Under the pieces are notes generated by a model. The model saw only the letters and a program-made list of their open reading frames with translations. It made no database searches and was not told where the DNA came from. This document shows positions 1 through 7,563 of a stretch of DNA of 64,000 nucleotides, in pieces; within the stretch, counting starts at the first letter, position 1, and each line of letters begins with the position of its first letter. Source of the DNA: an uncultured Chloroflexia bacterium. Lineage in GTDB: Bacteria; Chloroflexota; Chloroflexia; QHBQ01; JADMIH01. Location: the NCBI GenBank assembly GCA_963797095.1, contig CAWCNY010000004.1, positions 288,001-352,000 on the forward strand, given 5' to 3'. The translations under genes and the position numbers were made by a program.

Positions 1-486
1 GAGGAATTGCGCAGCCGCCTCTCGACTTCCACGCCATCCATCCCACCAAAAGCGTTCCCATACATCATGGCCCTCGCCGTCGCAAAAGGCGCGATTGCCG
101 AAGAAGCCACTACTTTCCGGCTGCCCAGTCATGGTCCCACATATACCCCTGCACAGGAAGCCCAGTTGCGAGCGTTTCGCCGCGCCAATGCGGACTCGCC
201 GTATTCGCCGCCCTCTCCCGCCGAATTGGGCATCGATCAGGAGGTTCTTGCTTCCCTTATCGAAAGCGGTGAGGTGATCAGGATAGACGACCTTTACTAT
301 ATGCGCCCAGTCTTCGATGAGATGAGAGCTCGTATTCTGACCACAATTGACGAGAAGGGCGAGATCAACGTAGCCGGGATGCGCGAACTCTTCGGCACGA
401 CCCGCAAATACGCCATCCCCATACTGGAGTATCTGGATCAGCACAAGATCACGCGCAGGGTCGGCGATGTGCGTGTGCGTTGGTAG
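1..486 (+). CDS. selB: Selenocysteine-specific elongation factor SelB, C-terminal winged-helix (SECIS-binding) domains; 5' truncated by window edge
   Basis: C-terminus GTTRKYAIPILEYLDQHKITRRVGDVR is the characteristic SelB WH4 signature; frame is open from base 1. Confidence 0.93.
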   Translation, partial: EELRSRLSTSTPSIPPKAFPYIMALAVAKGAIAEEATTFRLPSHGPTYTPAQEAQLRAFRRANADSPYSPPSPAELGIDQEVLASLIESGEVIRIDDLYYMRPVFDEMRARILTTIDEKGEINVAGMRELFGTTRKYAIPILEYLDQHKITRRVGDVRVRW

Positions 487-491
487 CCCTA

Positions 492-500
492 TGCTATAAT
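492..500 (+). promoter_or_regulatory. Extended -10 promoter element (TG-C-TATAAT) upstream of the SDR gene
   Basis: tgctataat about 37 nt before ATG 537, which has an AGGAG RBS. Confidence 0.5.
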
Positions 501-536
501 GTCCAGGCCAATCTATCACTTGCAGGAGTACAAAGC

Positions 537-1383
537 ATGAGTGACAACACCGGGAGCGCTAGTGCTCCTGCTGCCGAAACGAGCGAGCCGAAGAGCCTGG
601 AGTGGGCTCTCATACTGGGATCATCTTCAGGTTTTGGGGCCGCCACCTCCATTGCCCTCGCCGAGCAGGCAGGCCTCAATGTCTGCGGCGTCCACCTGCG
701 TCGCCCAACCGATCAGGATATGTTCGAGGAAGTCAAGTCGCGTATCGAAGCGGCGGGAACTCAAATACATCCCCTTCAACATGAACGCCGCCAATCCCGA
801 CCGCCGGAAGGATGCCCTCGACAAGATGGCCGAAGCAATGGACGGCTCAGGCTTCCGGGTGCTTCTCCACTCCCTCGCCTTCGGCACCCTCAAACCCTTC
901 GTAACTCCCAACCCCGAAGACTCAATCCAGCAGCCCAGCATGGACATGACCCTCGATGTGATGGCCCATTCCCTCGTCTACTGGGTACAAGATGCCCTTC
1001 AACGAGGTATGTTGGGGCGAGGCAGCCGCATATTTGCGATGACCTCCGCAGGATCGCACCGCATCGTTCCCAACTACGGAGCGGTGTCAGCGGCCAAGGC
1101 CTCACTTGAATCGCACATTCGCCAGCTTGCCGCCGAACTTGCACCACGCGGCATAACCGCCAATGCAATCATGGCGGGCGTCACCGACACCCCCGCGCTC
1201 CGCCGCATACCTGGCAATGAACGACTCGTGGAGGGCGCTTTGGCCCGCAATCCCTCCGGCAAACTCACCCTTCCGACCGATATAGCCAACTTTATCGCCC
1301 TCCTCGCCAGGCCAGGCTCAGGGGCCGATTGGCTAACCGGCAACGTAATTAACGTTGACGGTGGCGAAGACATAATGGGCTAG
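537..1383 (+). pseudogene. Enoyl-ACP reductase FabL-like SDR, split by a +1 frameshift near 759 (true lesion or sequencing error)
   Basis: Rossmann motif ALILGSSSGFG is in the frame of ORF 480..1109; catalytic YGAVSAAK and NVINVDGG are in the frame of ORF 541..1383; removing one A in ggaactcaaa joins EAAG to LKYIPFNMNAA. Confidence 0.8.
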
Positions 1384-1477: not shown

Positions 1478-2296
1478 ATGAGCAAGACGGCATATTCCAA
1501 AACACGGCCCCCATCTCGGCCAGCACCTGCTCGTCCTAGTCAAGTTGACGATTACGACGATGTACAGGAACCCATACGACCTCGATCCCAACGCAAGCAA
1601 TACGACGAGGAATACAATGAGAAATACAATGAGGAAAACGAGGATTACGAGGATTACGACGGCTACTACGCGGACGATGAGGAAGTTGCCGTAGTCTCCA
1701 TAAACCGGCGCGCTGTCGCGCTCTCAGTGTCAGCTATACTCGTGGTCGCGATCTTTGGCGTAGCAATCTGGCTCCTGATGTCCAGGAATAGCGTCCAGCA
1801 ACCTGCGGAGGGCCGCCTGACAGATATCCCAACCATAACGGGCTTCAACCCGGCCACCGCAAGCGAGGCCCAGGCCCCCAATAAAGGCTCTCCCGCACCT
1901 GATTTTGAGTGGCCTGAGAACGGATCTAGCGTGTCGCTCTCCTCCTATCGAGGCGATAAGCCCGTTTTCGTGAATTTCTGGGCCACATGGTGCCCTCCCT
2001 GCAAGGCGGAAATGCCCGAAATAGAGAACATATATAACACGCATAGGAACGACCTGGAGATTATCGGCGTCTCCATGGGCCCCCGAGACTGGCCCCAGTT
2101 GGTCCTCGACTTCGTCAATAAGACTACGTACAGTTGGAAGTTTATCCATGATGGCGATTATGGCATTGCCACACGCTACCAGGTGGTGAGCATCCCAAGC
2201 TCGTTCTTCATTGACAAGAACGGCGTCATCCAGGCCATCCACGTCGGTCAAATGGACCAGAGCATGATGGAGAGCTACTTACAACAGATTCAGTAG
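1478..2296 (+). CDS. Membrane-anchored TlpA/ResA-family thiol:disulfide oxidoreductase
   Basis: VNFWATWCPPCKAEMP motif, IPSSFFID cis-Pro loop, single TM helix after an acidic Tyr-rich N-terminal tail. Confidence 0.92.
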   Translation: MSKTAYSKTRPPSRPAPARPSQVDDYDDVQEPIRPRSQRKQYDEEYNEKYNEENEDYEDYDGYYADDEEVAVVSINRRAVALSVSAILVVAIFGVAIWLLMSRNSVQQPAEGRLTDIPTITGFNPATASEAQAPNKGSPAPDFEWPENGSSVSLSSYRGDKPVFVNFWATWCPPCKAEMPEIENIYNTHRNDLEIIGVSMGPRDWPQLVLDFVNKTTYSWKFIHDGDYGIATRYQVVSIPSSFFIDKNGVIQAIHVGQMDQSMMESYLQQIQ

Positions 2297-2350
2297 TCCT
2301 TATTAGTCTTTTTCCCTAGCTCGCGACAGATCAGGAGGTAATCACTTCTA

Positions 2351-3115
2351 ATGAGTCAGCTTCCAAAGCGGAGGCCACCCGCAGGTCAGGGTCAGAACCG
2401 ATCCCAAAGTCAGCGGAGGTCAGACCCCTACGCCGAATACCCACCACCTAGCAGACGTTCCGCTGGGCCGCCACCGCCCGGTGGCCGGTATTATCAGCAG
2501 AGGCCAAGAGCGGTCTACCCCCAGCGCGACCCCTTTCCCTACATCCTGGGTGGCCTAATCGGCGCGATGTTGGTCGGCCTGATGTTGGTCATCTTCCTTT
2601 TGATCAACAATAACAACGGCACCACCGCAGTACAGAACCGAGCCACCACTGGCAACACTACCACAACTGACCAGACCACAGGTGAGACCACAGATGACAC
2701 ACCACCGCGCATGTCGATGGACGACTTCAAGGCGCTCTACGACGACCCCGCAAAGCGCCCCATGATCATTGATGTGCGCCCATCTGATGCCTATAATGAG
2801 GGTCACATTGCGGGCGCGGTTTCCATGCCAGAAGACGATATCGACATTCTGCTCGATAAGATCCCCAAGGATTCACTCGTCATCGCGTACTGTCAATGAC
2901 CGGCCGAAAATGAAAGCGCCCGTGTGGCGCAAAAGCTACATGAAGAATATAATTACAGCTACGACAATCTGAAGGTGCTCCTCGGTGGTTGGACTGCGTG
3001 GAAAGATCAGAATACAAACAACCCGACAGGCTATCCAATCGAAACGGGTGGATCAACCGCCCCCACTACACCTCCTAAGGTGGTCATCACACCCAGCACT
3101 GTGATCACTCCATAA
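2351..3115 (+). CDS. Membrane-anchored rhodanese-like selenoprotein (CxU motif; TGA 2897-2899 read as Sec), 254 aa
   Basis: IIDVR..AYNEGHIAGAVS..IAYCQ-TGA-PAENESARVAQKL..LKVLLGGWTAW; the rhodanese fold is only complete if TGA is read through; hairpin downstream; selB adjacent. Confidence 0.88.
2916..2930 (+). promoter_or_regulatory. Candidate bacterial SECIS hairpin 1
   Basis: GCGCC-CGTGT-GGCGC starting 16 nt after the in-frame TGA. Confidence 0.7.
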
Positions 3116-3140
3116 TCACAGCGTCAAAACATCTATTCAA

Positions 3141-3168
3141 GTATGGGCGGGCCTAAACCCGCCCATAC
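3141..3168. repeat. REP-like palindrome / stem-loop between the two rhodanese genes
   Basis: GTATGGGCGGG-CCTAAA-CCCGCCCATAC, perfect 11-bp stem. Confidence 0.65.
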
Positions 3169-3945
3169 ATGTGCAATCTCAAGCGTAACTGGAGTTCCTA
3201 TACCACAGTGGATAACCAGCCAAGAGAACACAAACCGGTACGGCATATCAGGCCTGACCATAAAGGGGATCACCACGACCAACAATCTCGGCGTGCAAAT
3301 ATCGCAAAGCACGATCCTTTCCCCTATATGATTAGTGGCCTCATCACCGCCGCTGTGCTCGGCCTGGTCCTCGTCGCCTGGCTCCTCATCTCACCGGGTA
3401 GCACCGGCCTTCCCCTAGCACCCGCTCCAACCGCATTCGCGAACGCCCCATTCGATTTTCCTACTTCCGCGATCCCGATCCCTGCCGGCGCCGCAGCGCC
3501 GGGCGATGTGCCGACCCTTGAGGTTCCAACCCAGGATATCGCTCTCCCGCCTCCCGAACCCACCGGCTCACCTCCCCCCGCCGACGACCCGCCACGTATC
3601 GCCCTCGGTGACTTCAAGGCCCTCTACGACGACCCGTCAAGTCGACCCCTGATTCTTGACACTCGCAATGAGCAAGCATACTCGGAAGGCCATATACCGG
3701 GTGCGGTACTTTTCCCCGCTTCTGACGTGGTAAGCAATGTTGTCACGCTTCCCAAAGACAGGCTGATCGTTGCCTACTGCCAATGACCGGAGGAACACAC
3801 CAGCGCCAGTGTGGCGCGGCAGTTGAAAGAGCAGTTCGGCTTCAGCTATGGCTACGTGAAGGTCCTGCTTGGCGGCTGGGATGCCTGGGCCACAAAGAAT
3901 TCGCAGGACCCCGCCGGATACCCTATCGCTACAGGTGATAAATAG
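3169..3945 (+). CDS. Second membrane-anchored rhodanese-like selenoprotein (CxU; TGA 3784-3786 read as Sec); start may be GTG 3208
   Basis: LILDTR..AYSEGHIPGAV..IVAYCQ-TGA-PEEHTSASVARQLKEQFGFSYGYVKVLLGGWDAW..GYPIATGDK-TAG; homology to the paralog continues past the TGA. Confidence 0.88.
3803..3817 (+). promoter_or_regulatory. Candidate bacterial SECIS hairpin 2
   Basis: GCGCC-AGTGT-GGCGC starting 16 nt after the in-frame TGA, extendable with CC/GG pairs. Confidence 0.7.
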
Positions 3946-4014
3946 ACGCTATCCCATAATCAAGCTCTGGTGGCCCGTTTATGGGCTGCAACTCGCCCAC
4001 TAATATCCAATTGG

Positions 4015-4918: not shown

Positions 4919-6229
4919 ATGCTCTACTTATCGACAGTCATAGGCAAGCGAATAGCGGTCAAGAGCGGCGACACTGTAGCGCGCTTGCGCGACCTGGTGG
5001 CCGACCTGGAACCGTCTCCAGTCATAGGCGAGCCTTCAGAAGAGCGCCAGCCAACCTTGCGGATCAAAGGGCTGGTTGCGCGCACCGCAAGGCGTCGCCA
5101 GCCATTCTTCGTGCCTGCTTCCCTTATCGAAACTCTCGGTGAAAACGGGGTGCGTTTGCGCTCGTCCCAGCTCGACCTCCAGCCCTTCGAGCGCCGCGAC
5201 GCAGAGGTGCTCCTGACCCGCGATCTATGGGACAAGCAGGTAATCGACCTTACCAGCAGACGTGTCGTGCGGGTCAACGATATTCTGCTGGACAGCAACG
5301 CCCCTTCATCCCATGACGAGGCTGCGATCTGGTACGTTTCAGGCGTGGACGTTGGGCTGGGTGCGCTACTTCGGCGGGTTAAGTTGACCGGACCTCTCGA
5401 AGCGCTAACGCACAAGCACCTGGACGCCCAGGTGCTCGCATGGTCCGGCATAGACCTTTTCAGCAGTAATATGCCGGAGAACTTTCACGTTCAACACGAA
5501 AAGCTGGCGACCCTCCACCCCGTCGAGATCGCACGCATCACAAACTCCCTAAGCTACCACCAGGGCGCGGAGATCATTGCCTCACTGGACGATACCCTTG
5601 CTGCCGATACTTTAGAGGAGATCACTGCCCAGCGACAGACCGATATTGTCGAAGAGATCCCGGATGAGATGGCAGCCGACATTATCGAGGAAATGGCCCC
5701 CGATGACGCCACCGATTTGCTGGCCGAGCTACCTGAAGAGAAAGCCAGCGCCCTCCTCGATGAGATGGAGGACGAGCGCGCTGAAGATGTTCGCCAGCTA
5801 ATGCGCTACCCGGATCATACAGCGGGCAGGGCAATGACTACCGACTTCGTGCGCGTGCAGCCGACCATGACTGTGCAACAGGTCATTAAGGCCAACCGGT
5901 CACGTTTCCTTGCTTCTGACCTTATCTACTACATGTATGTGACGGCTTCTGAGAAAGACGACACGCTGATCGGTGTGATCACCGTACGCGACTTGCTGGT
6001 CGAAAGCCGCGATGCCCGCGTGAGCCACTTCATGCTGACCGATTTCTTGGCGGTGCGTCCGGGCGAACACGAACGCGAAGTCGCCCGCAAAATGGCCGAA
6101 TACAACCTGCTTGCACTTCCTGTCGTGGACCGCAATGGCATTCTCCTCGGCGTAGTCACGATAGACGATGCGCTCAATTCCCTCCTCCCCGAAGGCTGGA
6201 AGAAGCGGTTGCCGAGGATCTTCAGCTAG
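4919..6229 (+). CDS. MgtE intracellular N-domain + CBS-pair protein with N-terminal PRC-like barrel
   Basis: LHPVEIA, EEMAPDDATDLL, YPDHTAGRAMTTDF, YNLLALPVVD..LGVVTIDD. Confidence 0.88.
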   Translation: MLYLSTVIGKRIAVKSGDTVARLRDLVADLEPSPVIGEPSEERQPTLRIKGLVARTARRRQPFFVPASLIETLGENGVRLRSSQLDLQPFERRDAEVLLTRDLWDKQVIDLTSRRVVRVNDILLDSNAPSSHDEAAIWYVSGVDVGLGALLRRVKLTGPLEALTHKHLDAQVLAWSGIDLFSSNMPENFHVQHEKLATLHPVEIARITNSLSYHQGAEIIASLDDTLAADTLEEITAQRQTDIVEEIPDEMAADIIEEMAPDDATDLLAELPEEKASALLDEMEDERAEDVRQLMRYPDHTAGRAMTTDFVRVQPTMTVQQVIKANRSRFLASDLIYYMYVTASEKDDTLIGVITVRDLLVESRDARVSHFMLTDFLAVRPGEHEREVARKMAEYNLLALPVVDRNGILLGVVTIDDALNSLLPEGWKKRLPRIFS

Positions 6230-7563
6230 TGCACATCAAGCATCGTTACCGCCCTGGCGTGGCAAACCAGCCAAGCGAGGGAAGGGGCGTTCCATGGACT
6301 GAGCGTGTCATAGGGCGGCTGTTGTCGCCGTTGCGCAGGCTGCGACGGTTGCCCTTCTGGATGTACCTCGCTGTGCTGGGTCCGGGAGTTGTGTCGGCGG
6401 CGGCGGGCAACGACGCCGGAGGCATAGCCACCTACGCACAGGTCGGCGCGGGCTATGGATACTCTCTCCTGTGGGCCATGCTGATCGTCACAGTTGGGCT
6501 CGTCCTTGTGCAGGAGATGTGCGCCCGTATGGGGGCCGTCACGGGCAAGGGACTGTCCGACCTCATCCGCGAAGAATTCGGCGCTGGCCGGGCCTTGCTT
6601 GTCATCGCGGTGCTTCTCATCGCCAACACCGGCATCACGATCTCGGAGTTCGTCGGGATTGCCGCCGCTGCGGGCCTGTTCGGAATTCCGGGCTGGATCG
6701 CGGTGCCTCCGATCGCCCTCCTGGTGTGGTGGTTGATCACCAACGGTTCATACAGGGCGGTTGAACGTATCTTCATCCTCCTTTCGCTCGTCTTCGTCAC
6801 CTATGTAGTAGCAGCGTTCCTAGCAAAGCCTGACTGGGGACAGGTCGGTGTATCGTTCTTTACTCCCAATATACAGTTCGAGCCAGGCGCTTTGCAGGCA
6901 TTGGTAGCGCTCATCGGGACCACGATCACGCCCTATATGCAGCTATTCGTGCAGGCGTCGGTGGTGGAGAAGGGCGTCACTCCACGAGACTACAAGTACA
7001 CGCGTTTCGATACTGTCATAGGCGTGCTAATGTCGAATGCGGTCTCGATCTTCATAATCATAGCCACTGCCGCCACTCTCCATATTGCAGGCATCACCAA
7101 CGTAAAGAGCGCCGACGATGCGGCAAAAGCTCTTGAGCCGGTGGCGGGACAGGGCGCGGCGCTCTTGTTCGCCATAGGGCTGTTCGGCGCTTCTATGCTG
7201 GCCGCAGGTGTCCTTCCGTTAGCCACTGCCTTCTCGGTAACTGAAGCTCTCGGGTTCGAGAAGGGAGTGAGCCTCTCTTTCAGGGAAGCGCCCGTCTTTA
7301 TAGGGATGTTCTCAGTCCTCCTCGCAATCGGCGCCCTGGTAGCCATCATTCCCGGATTGCCCCTATTCCCCGTCCTGATCGCGGTCCAGATTCTGAACGG
7401 TGTGCTACTACCGATATTGTTGGTCTTCATAGTCAGGTTAGCGGCAAACAAAGAGTTGATGGGCAAGTACGCCATTGGTCCTGTGTACCGTACTCTGGCA
7501 TGGGCCACTGTAGTCGTGATCACTATCGCTGTTCTTCTCCTGTTTGTCACCACCCTATTCTAG
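6229..7563 (+). CDS. NRAMP-related divalent cation transporter (Mg2+-type, NDAGG variant)
   Basis: LGPGVVSAAAGNDAGGIATY, QEMCARMGAVTGKGL, GTTITPY; about 11 TM helices; coupled to the MgtE-N/CBS gene. Confidence 0.9.
   Translation: MHIKHRYRPGVANQPSEGRGVPWTERVIGRLLSPLRRLRRLPFWMYLAVLGPGVVSAAAGNDAGGIATYAQVGAGYGYSLLWAMLIVTVGLVLVQEMCARMGAVTGKGLSDLIREEFGAGRALLVIAVLLIANTGITISEFVGIAAAAGLFGIPGWIAVPPIALLVWWLITNGSYRAVERIFILLSLVFVTYVVAAFLAKPDWGQVGVSFFTPNIQFEPGALQALVALIGTTITPYMQLFVQASVVEKGVTPRDYKYTRFDTVIGVLMSNAVSIFIIIATAATLHIAGITNVKSADDAAKALEPVAGQGAALLFAIGLFGASMLAAGVLPLATAFSVTEALGFEKGVSLSFREAPVFIGMFSVLLAIGALVAIIPGLPLFPVLIAVQILNGVLLPILLVFIVRLAANKELMGKYAIGPVYRTLAWATVVVITIAVLLLFVTTLF

What the first reader, a model, noticed from the sequence alone, without database searches (positions are those of the whole stretch)
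2351..3945. Two tandem hidden selenoproteins: membrane-anchored rhodaneses with a CxU active site
Seen: both ORFs 'end' at ...AYCQ-TGA, exactly in the rhodanese active-site loop. Both continue in frame with homologous sequence (PAENESARVAQKL..KVLLGGWTAW..GYPI and PEEHTSASVARQL..KVLLGGWDAW..GYPI) to stops at 3115 and 3945. The paralogs are otherwise diverged, so a TGA shared at the same codon indicates conservation rather than decay. Known: related rhodanese domains have YCxCPxExxSAR, so the TGA aligns with a Cys, the standard selenoprotein signature; selB lies about 2 kb upstream. Inference: both are Sec proteins that automated annotation would truncate. Rhodanese-related selenoproteins have been reported, so novelty of this TM-anchored CxU pair needs checking.
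Basis: partly seen in the sequence, partly recalled or inferred. Interest (0 to 1): 0.9.

Follow-up and report, generated by a model that had tools for sequence, protein, structure and literature searches.

The report
Two membrane-anchored rhodanese selenoproteins, mis-annotated
Two neighbouring genes for membrane-tethered rhodanese-type proteins each carry a TGA that is almost certainly read as selenocysteine, so public databases cut these proteins short, but this kind of selenoprotein is already known.

Summary
ORF1 (2351-3115) and ORF2 (3169-3945) each read AYCQ-TGA-P, and both frames stay open and homologous to the next stop. The selenocysteine reading is strongly supported. All 33 homologous copies in 30 loci have TGA at that column. 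A third paralog clade alternates TGA (12) with Cys (9). A hairpin GCGCC-NGUGN-GGCGC starts 16 nt after the TGA in 40 of 45 Sec forms and 0 of 9 Cys forms, and its synonymous sites are frozen. The motif occurs only 5 times in the 6.0 Mb genome, 3 of them after these TGAs. selA, selB, selD (itself with a TGA) and tRNA-Sec are present, and TGA is otherwise a normal stop. Database homologues are truncated at the TGA or read it as W. Both proteins have a basic N-terminus, one membrane helix and an outward-facing rhodanese domain. A ResA/TlpA-like thioredoxin gene lies beside the rhodanese gene in 21 of 30 loci. The closest curated family is NF041203, the CxU rhodanese selenoprotein "form 3", but scores (73 and 67 bits) miss its 115-bit cut-off. 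Verdict: real, a new variant of a known kind, biochemical function unknown.

The parts
1..486 (+). 3' end of selB (selenocysteine-specific elongation factor), winged-helix domains
   Evidence: Pfam SelB-wing_3 at 74.6 bits and SelB-wing_2 at 26.7 bits. The whole 633-aa frame at G000:C4:286594.. scores 323.5 bits for TIGR00475, above the cut-off.
1478..2296 (+). Membrane-anchored ResA/TlpA-like thiol:disulfide oxidoreductase with a WCPPC motif; proposed redox partner
   Evidence: AhpC-TSA 87.9 bits and Redoxin 85 bits. The NCBIfam ResA subfamily model scores 107.6 bits, below its cut-off of 170. One hydrophobic segment at residues 79-97. A homologue lies next to the rhodanese gene in 21 of 30 loci.
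2351..3115 (+). ORF1, full selenoprotein gene (254 aa with Sec183)
2537..2608 (+). ORF1 predicted transmembrane helix (about residues 63-86); the N-side is basic, so N-in and C-out
   Evidence: Kyte-Doolittle 19-residue maximum of 2.71. K+R count is 12 on the N side and 1 in the 25 residues after the helix. The orientation is inferred from the positive-inside rule.
2717..3007 (+). ORF1 rhodanese domain
   Evidence: Pfam PF00581, residues 123-219. AlphaFold2 model with mean pLDDT 88.2. Foldseek best hit is 3nhv (BH2092), E 2.3e-08, rmsd 2.0 over 106 columns.
2891..2899 (+). Cys181-Gln182-Sec183 (TGT CAA TGA), the CxU motif in the active-site loop
   Evidence: Read directly from the sequence. 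Both the Cys column and the Sec/Cys column are invariant in all 48 aligned homologues.
2916..2930 (+). ORF1 SECIS-like hairpin GCGCC-CGUGU-GGCGC, starting 16 nt after the TGA
3169..3945 (+). ORF2, full selenoprotein gene (258 aa with Sec206)
3325..3393 (+). ORF2 predicted transmembrane helix (about residues 53-75)
   Evidence: Kyte-Doolittle maximum of 2.45. K+R count is 10 on the N side and 0 in the 25 residues after the helix.
3610..3894 (+). ORF2 rhodanese domain
   Evidence: Pfam PF00581, residues 148-242, 55.7 bits.
3778..3786 (+). Cys204-Gln205-Sec206 (TGC CAA TGA)
   Evidence: Read directly from the sequence.
3803..3817 (+). ORF2 SECIS-like hairpin GCGCC-AGUGU-GGCGC, starting 16 nt after the TGA

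Best explanation
Both genes encode full-length selenoproteins of about 255 residues. SelB bound to Sec-tRNA(Sec) reads the in-frame UGA as selenocysteine, guided by a short GC-rich hairpin with a GUG-containing loop. That hairpin begins 16 nt after the UGA, inside the coding sequence.

Each protein has a basic cytoplasmic N-terminus, one membrane helix, a low-complexity linker and an extracytoplasmic rhodanese domain. The active-site loop of that domain reads Cys-Gln-Sec-Pro.

The following steps are shown here:
- the TGA and the downstream frame are conserved;
- Cys and Sec alternate at this column in a paralog clade;
- the hairpin is conserved at the RNA level;
- the Sec machinery is complete;
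- the domain has the rhodanese fold.

The following steps are inferred. The Sec is the nucleophile that takes up a sulfane sulfur or attacks a disulfide. The neighbouring invariant Cys resolves the adduct as a Cys-x-Sec selenenylsulfide. The co-encoded, equally membrane-anchored ResA/TlpA-like thioredoxin recycles it. I put this redox-relay function at about 0.45. The confidence given below refers to the selenoprotein reading only.
For: 1. TGA conservation. TGA is at the same column in 33 of 33 homologous copies in loci L027-L056. In one search, every match above 100 bits that spans the column carries an in-frame TGA. The single match without one (G023:C37, query residues 1-164) ends before the column.

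2. Cys/Sec alternation. In the paralog clade that holds the genome's third copy (G000:C5:533406-533984), 12 rows read YC[QT]U and 9 read YC[DE]C, out of 21. On the tree the Cys label needs 3 changes, at least 2 of them forced by well-supported branches.

3. Hairpin specificity. The motif GCGCC.GTG.GGCG sits exactly 16 nt after the codon in 40 of 45 Sec forms and 0 of 9 Cys forms. By my reading of the rows printed, the other 5 Sec forms still form a hairpin there. L055b and L067 have a different stem, GAGAGCAA/UUGCUCUC. L043 and L073 have G-U wobbles. L074 has a different loop.

4. Natural control. The Cys form L059 encodes the same ESASVA peptide with other codons that break the stem.

5. Frozen synonymous sites. 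Codons +6 to +10 (S, A, R, V, A; 4- to 6-fold degenerate) have codon entropy of 0.24 bits or less. Ala +2 has 1.36 bits and Leu +13 has 2.15 bits.

6. Genome-wide rarity. The motif occurs 5 times on both strands of the 6.02 Mb genome, and 3 of these lie 16 nt after the three rhodanese TGAs.

7. Fit to the published bSECIS model. The model asks for a 3-9 nt loop, a 4-16 bp stem, G in the first two loop positions, 16-37 nt from UGA to the loop, and MFE of -7.5 or lower (PMC13188914 section 5, read). Here the loop is 5 nt, the stem 5 bp, the loop is C/A-G-U-G-U and the spacing is 21 nt. The isolated hairpins fold at -9.1 and -10.1 kcal/mol.

8. Positive control in the same genome. selD has an in-frame TGA at the usual ..CAGU-AGK site, followed by GGCGCAG-GUG-CUGCGCC.

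9. Sec machinery. selA scores 566.7 bits, selD 324.6 bits, selB 323.5 bits, and tRNA-Sec 69.1 bits with anticodon tca.

10. TGA is an ordinary stop in this genome. It ends 636 of 1825 open frames of 400 codons or more.

11. Best curated family. NF041203 'rhodanese-related (seleno)protein' is the top match for all 48 of 48 aligned homologues.
Against: - There is no protein-level evidence: no selenium labelling and no peptide.
- The hairpin is almost invariant, so covariation is weak. Only 1 pair changes on both sides, and 17 of 500 shuffles reach the observed score.
- Folds of 76 nt around each TGA are not more stable than shuffled sequence (z -0.83 and -0.61).
- No Rfam family matches the region.
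- My generic test of the bSECIS criteria separates the two classes poorly: 38 of 45 Sec forms against 3 of 9 Cys forms.
- Scores against NF041203 (72.7 and 67.2 bits) lie below its 115-bit cut-off.
- For the functional part, the ResA link rests on gene neighbourhood alone.
- The active-site loop is acidic (UPAENE), unlike the basic loops I recall for thiosulfate-using rhodaneses.
Confidence: 0.92

Rival explanations
1. The TGAs are genuine stop codons. The genes would be truncated rhodanese fragments or decaying pseudogenes, and the downstream similarity would be a relic.
For: Automated gene calls end at the TGA. In one search, no database homologue among 69 covers more than 74% of the read-through query. 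Of 12 homologues fetched, 9 end at YCQ and 1 at YCA. TGA is a common stop in this genome.
Against: A fragment ending at YCQ lacks the helix and strands that complete the rhodanese fold. The downstream frame is open and conserved at 45-65% identity in dozens of species across two families of one order. The TGA itself never mutates to a sense codon or another stop in 45 Sec forms. Cys forms continue through the same column. Synonymous sites are constrained exactly over the hairpin.
Confidence: 0.03
2. The TGA is read through, but not as selenocysteine. Candidates are Trp, Cys or Gly by near-cognate suppression, or a lineage-wide reassignment of TGA.
For: Two JGI gene calls, P0005 and P0007, translate the codon as W and continue in frame. 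I cannot tell which code or setting produced them.
Against: TGA ends 35% of long open frames in this genome. Several homologues of the same gene use a second TGA as their real stop, for example L064. The codon aligns with Cys in the sense-codon homologues, not with Trp. The complete Sec machinery is present, a SECIS-like hairpin sits at the right distance, and selB lies 1.9 kb upstream.
Confidence: 0.03
3. This is a rival on function only. The proteins are genuine selenoproteins, but they act as classical extracytoplasmic sulfurtransferases or as chalcogen/metalloid-handling enzymes. Examples would be a PspE-like, ChrE-like, ExtH-like or arsenate-reductase-like role. They would not form a redox pair with the ResA-like neighbour.
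For: Weak family matches among the 48 homologues include PspE (38 of 48, best E 3.2e-12), ChrE (27 of 48, best E 5.9e-15) and ExtH, the selenite/tellurite reduction operon rhodanese (5 of 48, best E 6.3e-06). Rhodanese-fold metalloid reductases and Cdc25 appear among the structural matches. No ResA-like hit was found in the 3.35-kb locus L022 around the third paralog on contig C5.
Against: The ResA-like gene is adjacent in 21 of 30 loci. The invariant Cys two residues from the Sec suggests a resolving residue. The loop is acidic and lacks the basic residues I recall for thiosulfate or oxyanion binding. All the named matches are far below their curated cut-offs.
Confidence: 0.4

Closest known systems
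NCBIfam NF041203 rhodanese_LYCAU, 'rhodanese-related (seleno)protein'. [quoted passage not shown]
   Same: It is a single rhodanese domain with a Cys-x-Sec motif at the same place. It is the best curated match for both window proteins and for all 48 aligned homologues. Its function is likewise only predicted.
   Different: Scores of 72.7 and 67.2 bits fall below the 115-bit cut-off. None of 301 Chloroflexota genomes reached the cut-off in a six-frame search, where the best score was 98.4 bits. The model has 126 positions, whereas these proteins are about 255 aa with an N-terminal tail, a membrane helix and a linker. The motif here is AYCQU rather than LYCAU. I could not inspect the architecture of bona fide NF041203 members.
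BH2092 of Bacillus halodurans (PDB 3nhv, 3o3w), a structural-genomics rhodanese-like protein
   Same: It is the best Foldseek match (E 2.3e-08, rmsd 2.0 over 106 columns). Among single-domain proteins it is also one of the best sequence matches. It shares the loop pattern YCxxPAxN.
   Different: It has Gly where these proteins have Sec, and a second Cys three residues further on. No membrane anchor was seen in the chain lengths listed. I know of no assigned function.
Single-domain rhodaneses PspE (periplasmic) and GlpE of E. coli
   Same: They share the fold and are single-domain proteins. PspE is also extracytoplasmic. NCBIfam matches are PspE in 38 of 48 homologues and GlpE in 40 of 48.
   Different: They have one catalytic Cys and no Sec. 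Their loops are of different composition. They are soluble, not membrane-anchored. All scores are far below their cut-offs.
TsoB, the rhodanese/DsbD fusion-like selenoprotein (NF045694)
   Same: It combines a Sec-containing rhodanese domain with a thiol:disulfide-transfer module. Here the two functions sit on neighbouring genes. Weak matches come from both the rhodanese proteins (24.7 and 20.8 bits) and the ResA-like neighbour (20.3 bits).
   Different: The cut-off is 805 bits, so this is not a member. TsoB is listed with a UxxxxU motif and two Sec residues (PMC13188914 table).
Eukaryotic SELENOF (Sep15), a CXU redox motif in a thioredoxin-like fold
   Same: According to the abstract of PMC9304195 (search listing), it has a Cys-x-Sec motif that acts as a redox-active pair resembling CXXC.
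   Different: The fold and lineage are unrelated. The parallel is in chemistry only.

Membership tests
Bacterial selenoprotein gene (SelB/SECIS-dependent UGA recoding) | In-frame UGA with a conserved open frame on both sides | tested here: met
   All 33 of 33 homologous copies carry TGA at this column, and the downstream sequence is conserved.
Bacterial selenoprotein gene (SelB/SECIS-dependent UGA recoding) | Homologues with Cys at the UGA column | tested here: met
   9 Cys forms and 12 Sec forms in the paralog clade. No Cys form was found within the window genes' own clade (0 of 29 rows; none among the 69 hits).
Bacterial selenoprotein gene (SelB/SECIS-dependent UGA recoding) | [quoted passage not shown] | tested here: met
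   The stem is 5 bp, the loop is (C/A)GUGU and the spacing to the loop is 21 nt. The isolated hairpins fold at -9.1 and -10.1 kcal/mol. The motif is in 40 of 45 Sec forms and 0 of 9 Cys forms. Covariation is weak.
Bacterial selenoprotein gene (SelB/SECIS-dependent UGA recoding) | selA, selB, selD and tRNA-Sec in the genome | tested here: met
   All are above their curated cut-offs, and ARAGORN calls tRNA-SeC with anticodon tca.
Bacterial selenoprotein gene (SelB/SECIS-dependent UGA recoding) | Selenium actually incorporated into the protein | not testable with these tools
   This needs 75Se labelling or mass spectrometry.
Rhodanese homology domain (Pfam PF00581) | HMM score above the gathering threshold, and the alpha/beta rhodanese fold | tested here: met
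   Scores are 58.2 and 55.7 bits against a cut-off of 22.2. The AlphaFold2 model has pLDDT 88.2. Foldseek gives 99 PDB matches at E of 0.001 or lower, and those listed are rhodanese, Cdc25 or rhodanese-fusion entries.
Rhodanese homology domain (Pfam PF00581) | Nucleophile at the first position of the active-site loop, after the central strand | tested here: inconclusive
   DSSP on the model puts the strand at 70-73 and the helix from 80, which makes Cys181 the first loop residue. The BH2092 and 3tp9 alignments agree with that. Gapless HMMER alignments to 6mxv and 1yt8 instead put the Sec on the catalytic Cys.
NCBIfam NF041203 rhodanese_LYCAU | Whole-protein score of at least 115 bits | tested here: not met
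   Scores are 72.7 and 67.2 bits. The best E-value among the 48 homologues is 3.3e-29. None of 301 phylum genomes was over the cut-off.
NCBIfam NF041203 rhodanese_LYCAU | Cys-x-Sec motif in the loop (the family name gives LYCAU) | tested here: met
   The motif is AYCQU in both genes. One database relative ends at YCA before its TGA (P0043).
NCBIfam NF045694 TsoB | Whole-protein score of at least 805 bits, as a rhodanese/DsbD-like fusion with two Sec residues | tested here: not met
   Scores are 24.7 and 20.8 bits. Each protein has a single Sec and no fusion.

The most novel reading that the evidence does not exclude
In this reading the rhodanese fold is not used as a sulfurtransferase. The canonical Cys and a Sec two residues later would form a Cys-x-Sec selenenylsulfide redox centre on the outer face of the membrane. 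Together with the co-encoded membrane-anchored ResA/TlpA-like thioredoxin, this would be a so far undescribed selenium-dependent extracytoplasmic thiol/persulfide-handling system. It would be widespread in Chloroflexota, duplicated in tandem, and in one species fused into a two-Sec protein.
Probability: 0.3. Interest if true: 0.6.

Novelty: new variant of a known kind. Interest (0 to 1): 0.42.

Why it matters
Practical value. A whole clade of genes is cut short at the active site in public protein sets. It was found in 25 of 25 sampled genomes of the genus, in 8 of 9 genomes of a sister family, and in related forms across the phylum. The curated selenoprotein model that should rescue these genes does not reach its cut-off on them. 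A model built from these sequences, together with the very uniform hairpin GCGCC-NGUGN-GGCGC, would let annotation pipelines recover them. It would also help chart the selenoproteome of Chloroflexota.

Biological value. Several features make this a tractable case for asking what a Cys-x-Sec rhodanese does, and why Sec is retained in one paralog while it is repeatedly exchanged for Cys in another. These features are the outward-facing membrane-tethered topology, the invariant Cys-x-Sec pair in an acidic loop, the conserved thioredoxin-like neighbour, and the repeated Sec/Cys switching in the sister paralog.

Tried and rejected
- Rfam scan of 2300-4000 at E up to 10. It returned only 5 chance matches (snoRNA, frameshift elements, a lncRNA region) and no SECIS family.
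- RNAalifold and pair counting on 30 sequences. The hairpin is recovered, but it is too invariant for covariation statistics. I relied on synonymous-site entropy and the Sec-versus-Cys contrast instead.
- Folding 76-nt windows around each TGA. They are not more stable than shuffles. The signal is a small local hairpin, not a large structure.
- My own implementation of the published bSECIS criteria. It separates Sec from Cys forms poorly (38 of 45 against 3 of 9), because four-pair stems miss the energy limit and unrelated hairpins pass. The position-specific motif is the better test.
- selA across 61 relatives. It is present in 59 of 61, so it gives no contrast between genomes with Sec forms and genomes with Cys forms.
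- Deciding which of Cys181 and Sec183 is the canonical nucleophile. HMMER alignments to solved structures disagree. This is left open.
- Literature searches for this membrane-anchored or ResA-linked form: 'selenoprotein + rhodanese + Chloroflexi', 'rhodanese/selenocysteine/CxU', 'selenoprotein + Chloroflexota' and 'rhodanese/ResA/selenocysteine/TlpA'. In the listings, and in the passages read, nothing describes it. Supplementary tables of these papers were not available and may list such genes.
- I considered assembly error as a cause of the TGAs, because a nearby gene looks frameshifted. I rejected it, because the TGA is present in dozens of independent genomes.
- Sequencing-run tools were not used. 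Transcript coverage cannot show how a codon is translated.
Full report
THE SEQUENCE

ORF1 begins at ATG 2351, twelve bases after an AGGAGG. It runs to a TGA at 2897-2899 that directly follows ...VIAYCQ. The same frame continues with PAENESARVAQKLHEEYNYSYDNLKVLLGGWTAW...GYPIETG to TAA at 3113-3115. ORF2 begins at ATG 3169. It reaches TGA at 3784-3786 after ...IVAYCQ and continues with PEEHTSASVARQLKEQFGFSYGYVKVLLGGWDAW...GYPIATGDK to TAG at 3943-3945.

Read through, the two proteins have 254 and 258 residues. They are 42% identical over 232 aligned columns, and the alignment runs across the TGA (E 1e-56). The Pfam Rhodanese domain spans the TGA in both (58.2 and 55.7 bits against a cut-off of 22.2). 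A product ending at the TGA would therefore lack the last third of the fold.

IS THE TGA SELENOCYSTEINE? COMPARATIVE EVIDENCE

The window is G000:C4:288001-352000. A six-frame search with the read-through ORF1 in 61 related genomes found matches in 44 of them. That includes 25 of 25 other genomes of the same genus and 8 of 9 genomes of a second family in the same order. Every match above 100 bits that spans the active-site column has an in-frame TGA. The one match without a stop (G023:C37) covers only query residues 1-164, upstream of the column.

In the 30 loci fetched, 33 of 33 homologous copies read [YL]C-x-TGA at the same position, mostly AYCQ-TGA-PAENESARVA. This count includes the window's two genes.

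The genome holds a third, more distant membrane-anchored paralog at C5:533406-533984, also with the TGA. I fetched 20 further relatives of that paralog. At the column there were 12 TGA forms and 9 Cys forms, out of 21 rows that include the genome's own copy L022. The TGA forms read YCQU in the genus and YCTU in three more distant relatives; the Cys forms read YC[DE]CP[NH]DEES.

A maximum-likelihood tree of 48 domains puts this paralog clade on a branch with 100/100 support. It needs 3 changes of the Cys label, at least 2 of them forced by well-supported branches. Sec and Cys have therefore been exchanged repeatedly within one genus. Among the 29 rows outside that clade, which hold ORF1 and ORF2, none has Cys.

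THE RNA SIGNAL

Sixteen bases after each TGA lies GCGCC-(C/A)GUGU-GGCGC, at 2916-2930 and 3803-3817. Several results bear on it.

- In an alignment of 30 copies this element is nearly invariant at the nucleotide level.
- The five codons that make it (Ser, Ala, Arg, Val, Ala; four- to six-fold degenerate) use one codon in 25 of 26 up to 30 of 30 sequences, with entropy of 0.24 bits or less. Flanking codons vary freely: Ala at +2 has 1.36 bits, Glu at +3 has 1.0 and Leu at +13 has 2.15. This is selection on the RNA, not on the protein.
- The motif GCGCC.GTG.GGCG sits at exactly +16 in 40 of 45 Sec forms and in 0 of 9 Cys forms.
- By my reading of the rows printed, the five Sec forms without the exact motif still pair at that place. 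Two have a wholly different stem, GAGAGCAA...UUGCUCUC. Two have G-U wobbles. One has a different loop.
- One Cys form, L059, encodes the same peptide ESASVA with codons that break the stem and remove the loop GU. It serves as a natural control.
- In the whole 6.02 Mb genome the motif occurs five times on both strands, and three of these are the sites after the three rhodanese TGAs.
- The hairpin meets the published consensus for bacterial SECIS elements as printed in PMC13188914 (section 5, read). That consensus asks for a loop of 3-9 nt, a stem of 4-16 bp, G in the first two loop positions, 16-37 nt between UGA and the loop (21 here), and energy of -7.5 kcal/mol or lower (-9.1 and -10.1 for the isolated hairpins).
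- As an internal control, selD of this genome has the classical in-frame TGA (...AQCAG-TGA-AGKMGPGDL), followed by GGCGCAG-GUG-CUGCGCC. That is again a GC-rich stem with a GUG loop.

There are weaknesses. The hairpin is so conserved that covariation statistics are weak. Windows of 76 nt are no more stable than shuffles. Rfam has no matching family. My generic implementation of the consensus criteria discriminates poorly, at 38 of 45 against 3 of 9.

MACHINERY AND GENETIC CODE

The Sec machinery is complete.

- selA scores 566.7 bits.
- selD scores 324.6 bits and has one TGA.
- selB scores 323.5 bits in a 633-aa frame that ends at window 486.
- tRNA-Sec scores 69.1 bits, and ARAGORN calls it SeC with anticodon tca.

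TGA ends 636 of 1825 open frames of at least 400 codons, so it is a normal stop here. Several homologues use a second TGA as their true stop.

PUBLIC ANNOTATION

A search of 5.8 billion predicted proteins returned 69 homologues at E of 1e-5 or lower. None covers more than 74% of the read-through query. I fetched 12 of them. Nine end at ...YCQ and one at ...YCA. Two JGI calls read the codon as W and continue with PAENESARVA.... Where a name is given it is 'rhodanese-like domain-containing protein', 'rhodanese-related sulfurtransferase', 'Rhodanese-like domain' or 'hypothetical protein'. The NCBI entries are labelled Chloroflexia or Chloroflexota bacterium.

ARCHITECTURE AND NEIGHBOURHOOD

Each protein has one strongly hydrophobic segment, at residues 67-85 in ORF1 and 57-75 in ORF2. 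In ORF1 the N-side holds 12 Lys+Arg, and the 25 residues after the helix hold 1. In ORF2 the counts are 10 and 0. By the positive-inside rule the rhodanese domain faces outward; this is inference.

An AlphaFold2 model of the ORF1 domain, built on a 48-sequence alignment, has mean pLDDT 88.2. The C-terminal tail has low confidence: 79, 54 and 69 for the last three ten-residue blocks, from model residue 121. Foldseek finds rhodanese domains, with BH2092 (3nhv) the best at E 2.3e-08 and rmsd 2.0 over 106 columns.

In the alignment the Cys and the Sec/Cys columns are both invariant in 48 of 48 sequences. So are an Asp, two Gly, a Tyr, a Ser, a Leu and a Trp.

Which of the two residues sits at the canonical nucleophile position is unresolved. 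The model's strand ends at Tyr and its helix starts six residues later, which favours the Cys. So do the alignments to BH2092 and 3tp9. Gapless alignments to 6mxv and 1yt8 place the Sec on the catalytic Cys instead.

Directly upstream, at 1478-2296, lies a membrane-anchored ResA/TlpA-like thioredoxin with a WCPPC motif. A homologue lies beside the rhodanese gene in 21 of 30 loci. Several of the nine loci without one are short contig ends. The genes are 54 and 53 bases apart on one strand, followed by a convergent gene, which fits one operon. selB ends 1.9 kb upstream.

MECHANISM

The recoding step is well supported. The biochemical function is inferred. My preferred reading, at about 0.45, has four steps.

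1. The outward-facing Sec attacks a disulfide or a sulfane sulfur.
2. The invariant Cys two residues away resolves the adduct as a selenenylsulfide.
3. The ResA-like thioredoxin on the same face of the membrane reduces it.
4. The system is thereby reset.

A Cys-x-Sec pair acting as a redox centre has a precedent in eukaryotic SELENOF (abstract of PMC9304195, seen in the listing).

The main functional rival, at about 0.4, is a classical sulfurtransferase or a chalcogen/metalloid-handling role. It is suggested by weak matches to PspE, ChrE and ExtH. Against it, the loop is acidic (UPAENE, or CPHDEE in the Cys forms), whereas I recall basic loops in thiosulfate-using rhodaneses.

COMPARISON WITH WHAT IS KNOWN

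Rhodanese-type selenoproteins are catalogued. The table in PMC13188914 (passages read) lists five forms. One is 'form 3, NF041203, CxU', credited to its reference 13, the work that the same review cites for the bSECIS consensus. PMC9312934 lists the same group as 'COG0607 form 2, CxU' and notes that functions are unknown. The Sargasso Sea study lists 3 rhodanese-related selenoprotein sequences (PMC1088965 table).

NF041203 is the best NCBIfam match for both window proteins and for all 48 aligned homologues. The scores are 72.7 and 67.2 bits against a cut-off of 115. In a six-frame scan of 301 Chloroflexota genomes, 82 had a match at E of 1e-12 or lower and none passed the cut-off; the best was 98.4 bits. 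Most of the better matches carry one TGA.

In the twelve loci fetched from that scan, eleven rhodanese copies read [YFV]C[TSA]U and are followed at the same distance by the same hairpin or a one-base variant of it. They occur in different architectures: small proteins of about 150 aa, and C-terminal domains of frames of about 600 aa.

The kind is therefore known and appears widespread in this phylum. The window's genes are a distinct variant: membrane-anchored, ResA-linked, tandemly duplicated and below the curated threshold. My searches found no description of this variant. Supplementary tables were not available to me.

VERDICT

It is a solid annotation correction and a useful entry point to an uncharacterised selenoprotein family, but it is not a surprise to a specialist. 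I score interest at 0.42 and class it as a new variant of a known kind.

Noticed in passing
window 480-1383 (+): An enoyl-reductase/short-chain dehydrogenase gene appears split over two overlapping frames. The NAD(P)H-binding N-terminus is in frame 480-1109 (Eno-Rase_NADH_b, residues 40-77). The rest is in frame 541-1383 (adh_short_C2, 122.6 bits, residues 73-275). This could be a frameshift, a pseudogene or an assembly indel between about 711 and 757.
   Followed up: no
G000:C5:533406-533984 (-), locus L022: This is a third membrane-anchored rhodanese gene of the same genome, with in-frame TGA (LYCQU-PHDEESASVA) and the same hairpin. Its orthologues in sister species alternate between Sec and Cys, and the Cys label needs 3 changes on the tree. 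All 9 Cys forms have D or E between the two Cys. Within the genus, the Sec forms of this paralog clade have Q at that position.
   Followed up: partly
L055 (G003:C17), locus positions about 1411-2379: One open frame holds two rhodanese domains in tandem, one of each paralog type. Each has its own TGA and its own hairpin, and the second hairpin has the alternative stem GAGAGCAA/UUGCUCUC. This would be a protein with two Sec residues.
   Followed up: partly
G000:C2:243079-243930 (+), locus L002: selD is itself a selenoprotein gene here. It has TGA at ..AQCAG-U-AGKMGPGDL, followed 26 nt later by GGCGCAG-GUG-CUGCGCC.
   Followed up: partly
L079, L081, L084 (phylum relatives); also L075, L076: Sec-containing rhodanese domains (VVAYCTU...) with the same hairpin form the C-terminal end of open frames of about 600 codons in other Chloroflexota families (617 or 618 in the three loci named first). 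The N-terminal parts were not identified.
   Followed up: no
window 4973-6229 and 6229-7563 (+): A protein with MgtE_N and CBS domains, for which Pfam reported no membrane domain, ends exactly where an Nramp transporter gene begins (313.1 bits). It may be a regulatory subunit paired with the transporter.
   Followed up: no
proteins P0005 and P0007 (JGI): Two public gene calls translate the TGA as W and so give the full-length domain (AYCQWPAENESARVA...). Ten other fetched relatives stop at the codon.
   Followed up: no
proteins P0065, P0067, P0069: Relatives of the same rhodanese carry other N-terminal parts before the membrane helix. P0065 and P0067 have zinc-ribbon domains (PF13248, PF13240). 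P0069 has a region of about 340 residues with no assigned domain.
   Followed up: no
alignment A1, codons -3, -1 and +1 around the TGA: The immediate context of the TGA is also fixed at synonymous sites: TAC in 30 of 30, CAA in 27 of 28 and CCG in 26 of 29. The codon is therefore nearly always followed by C. This may tune termination against Sec insertion.
   Followed up: no
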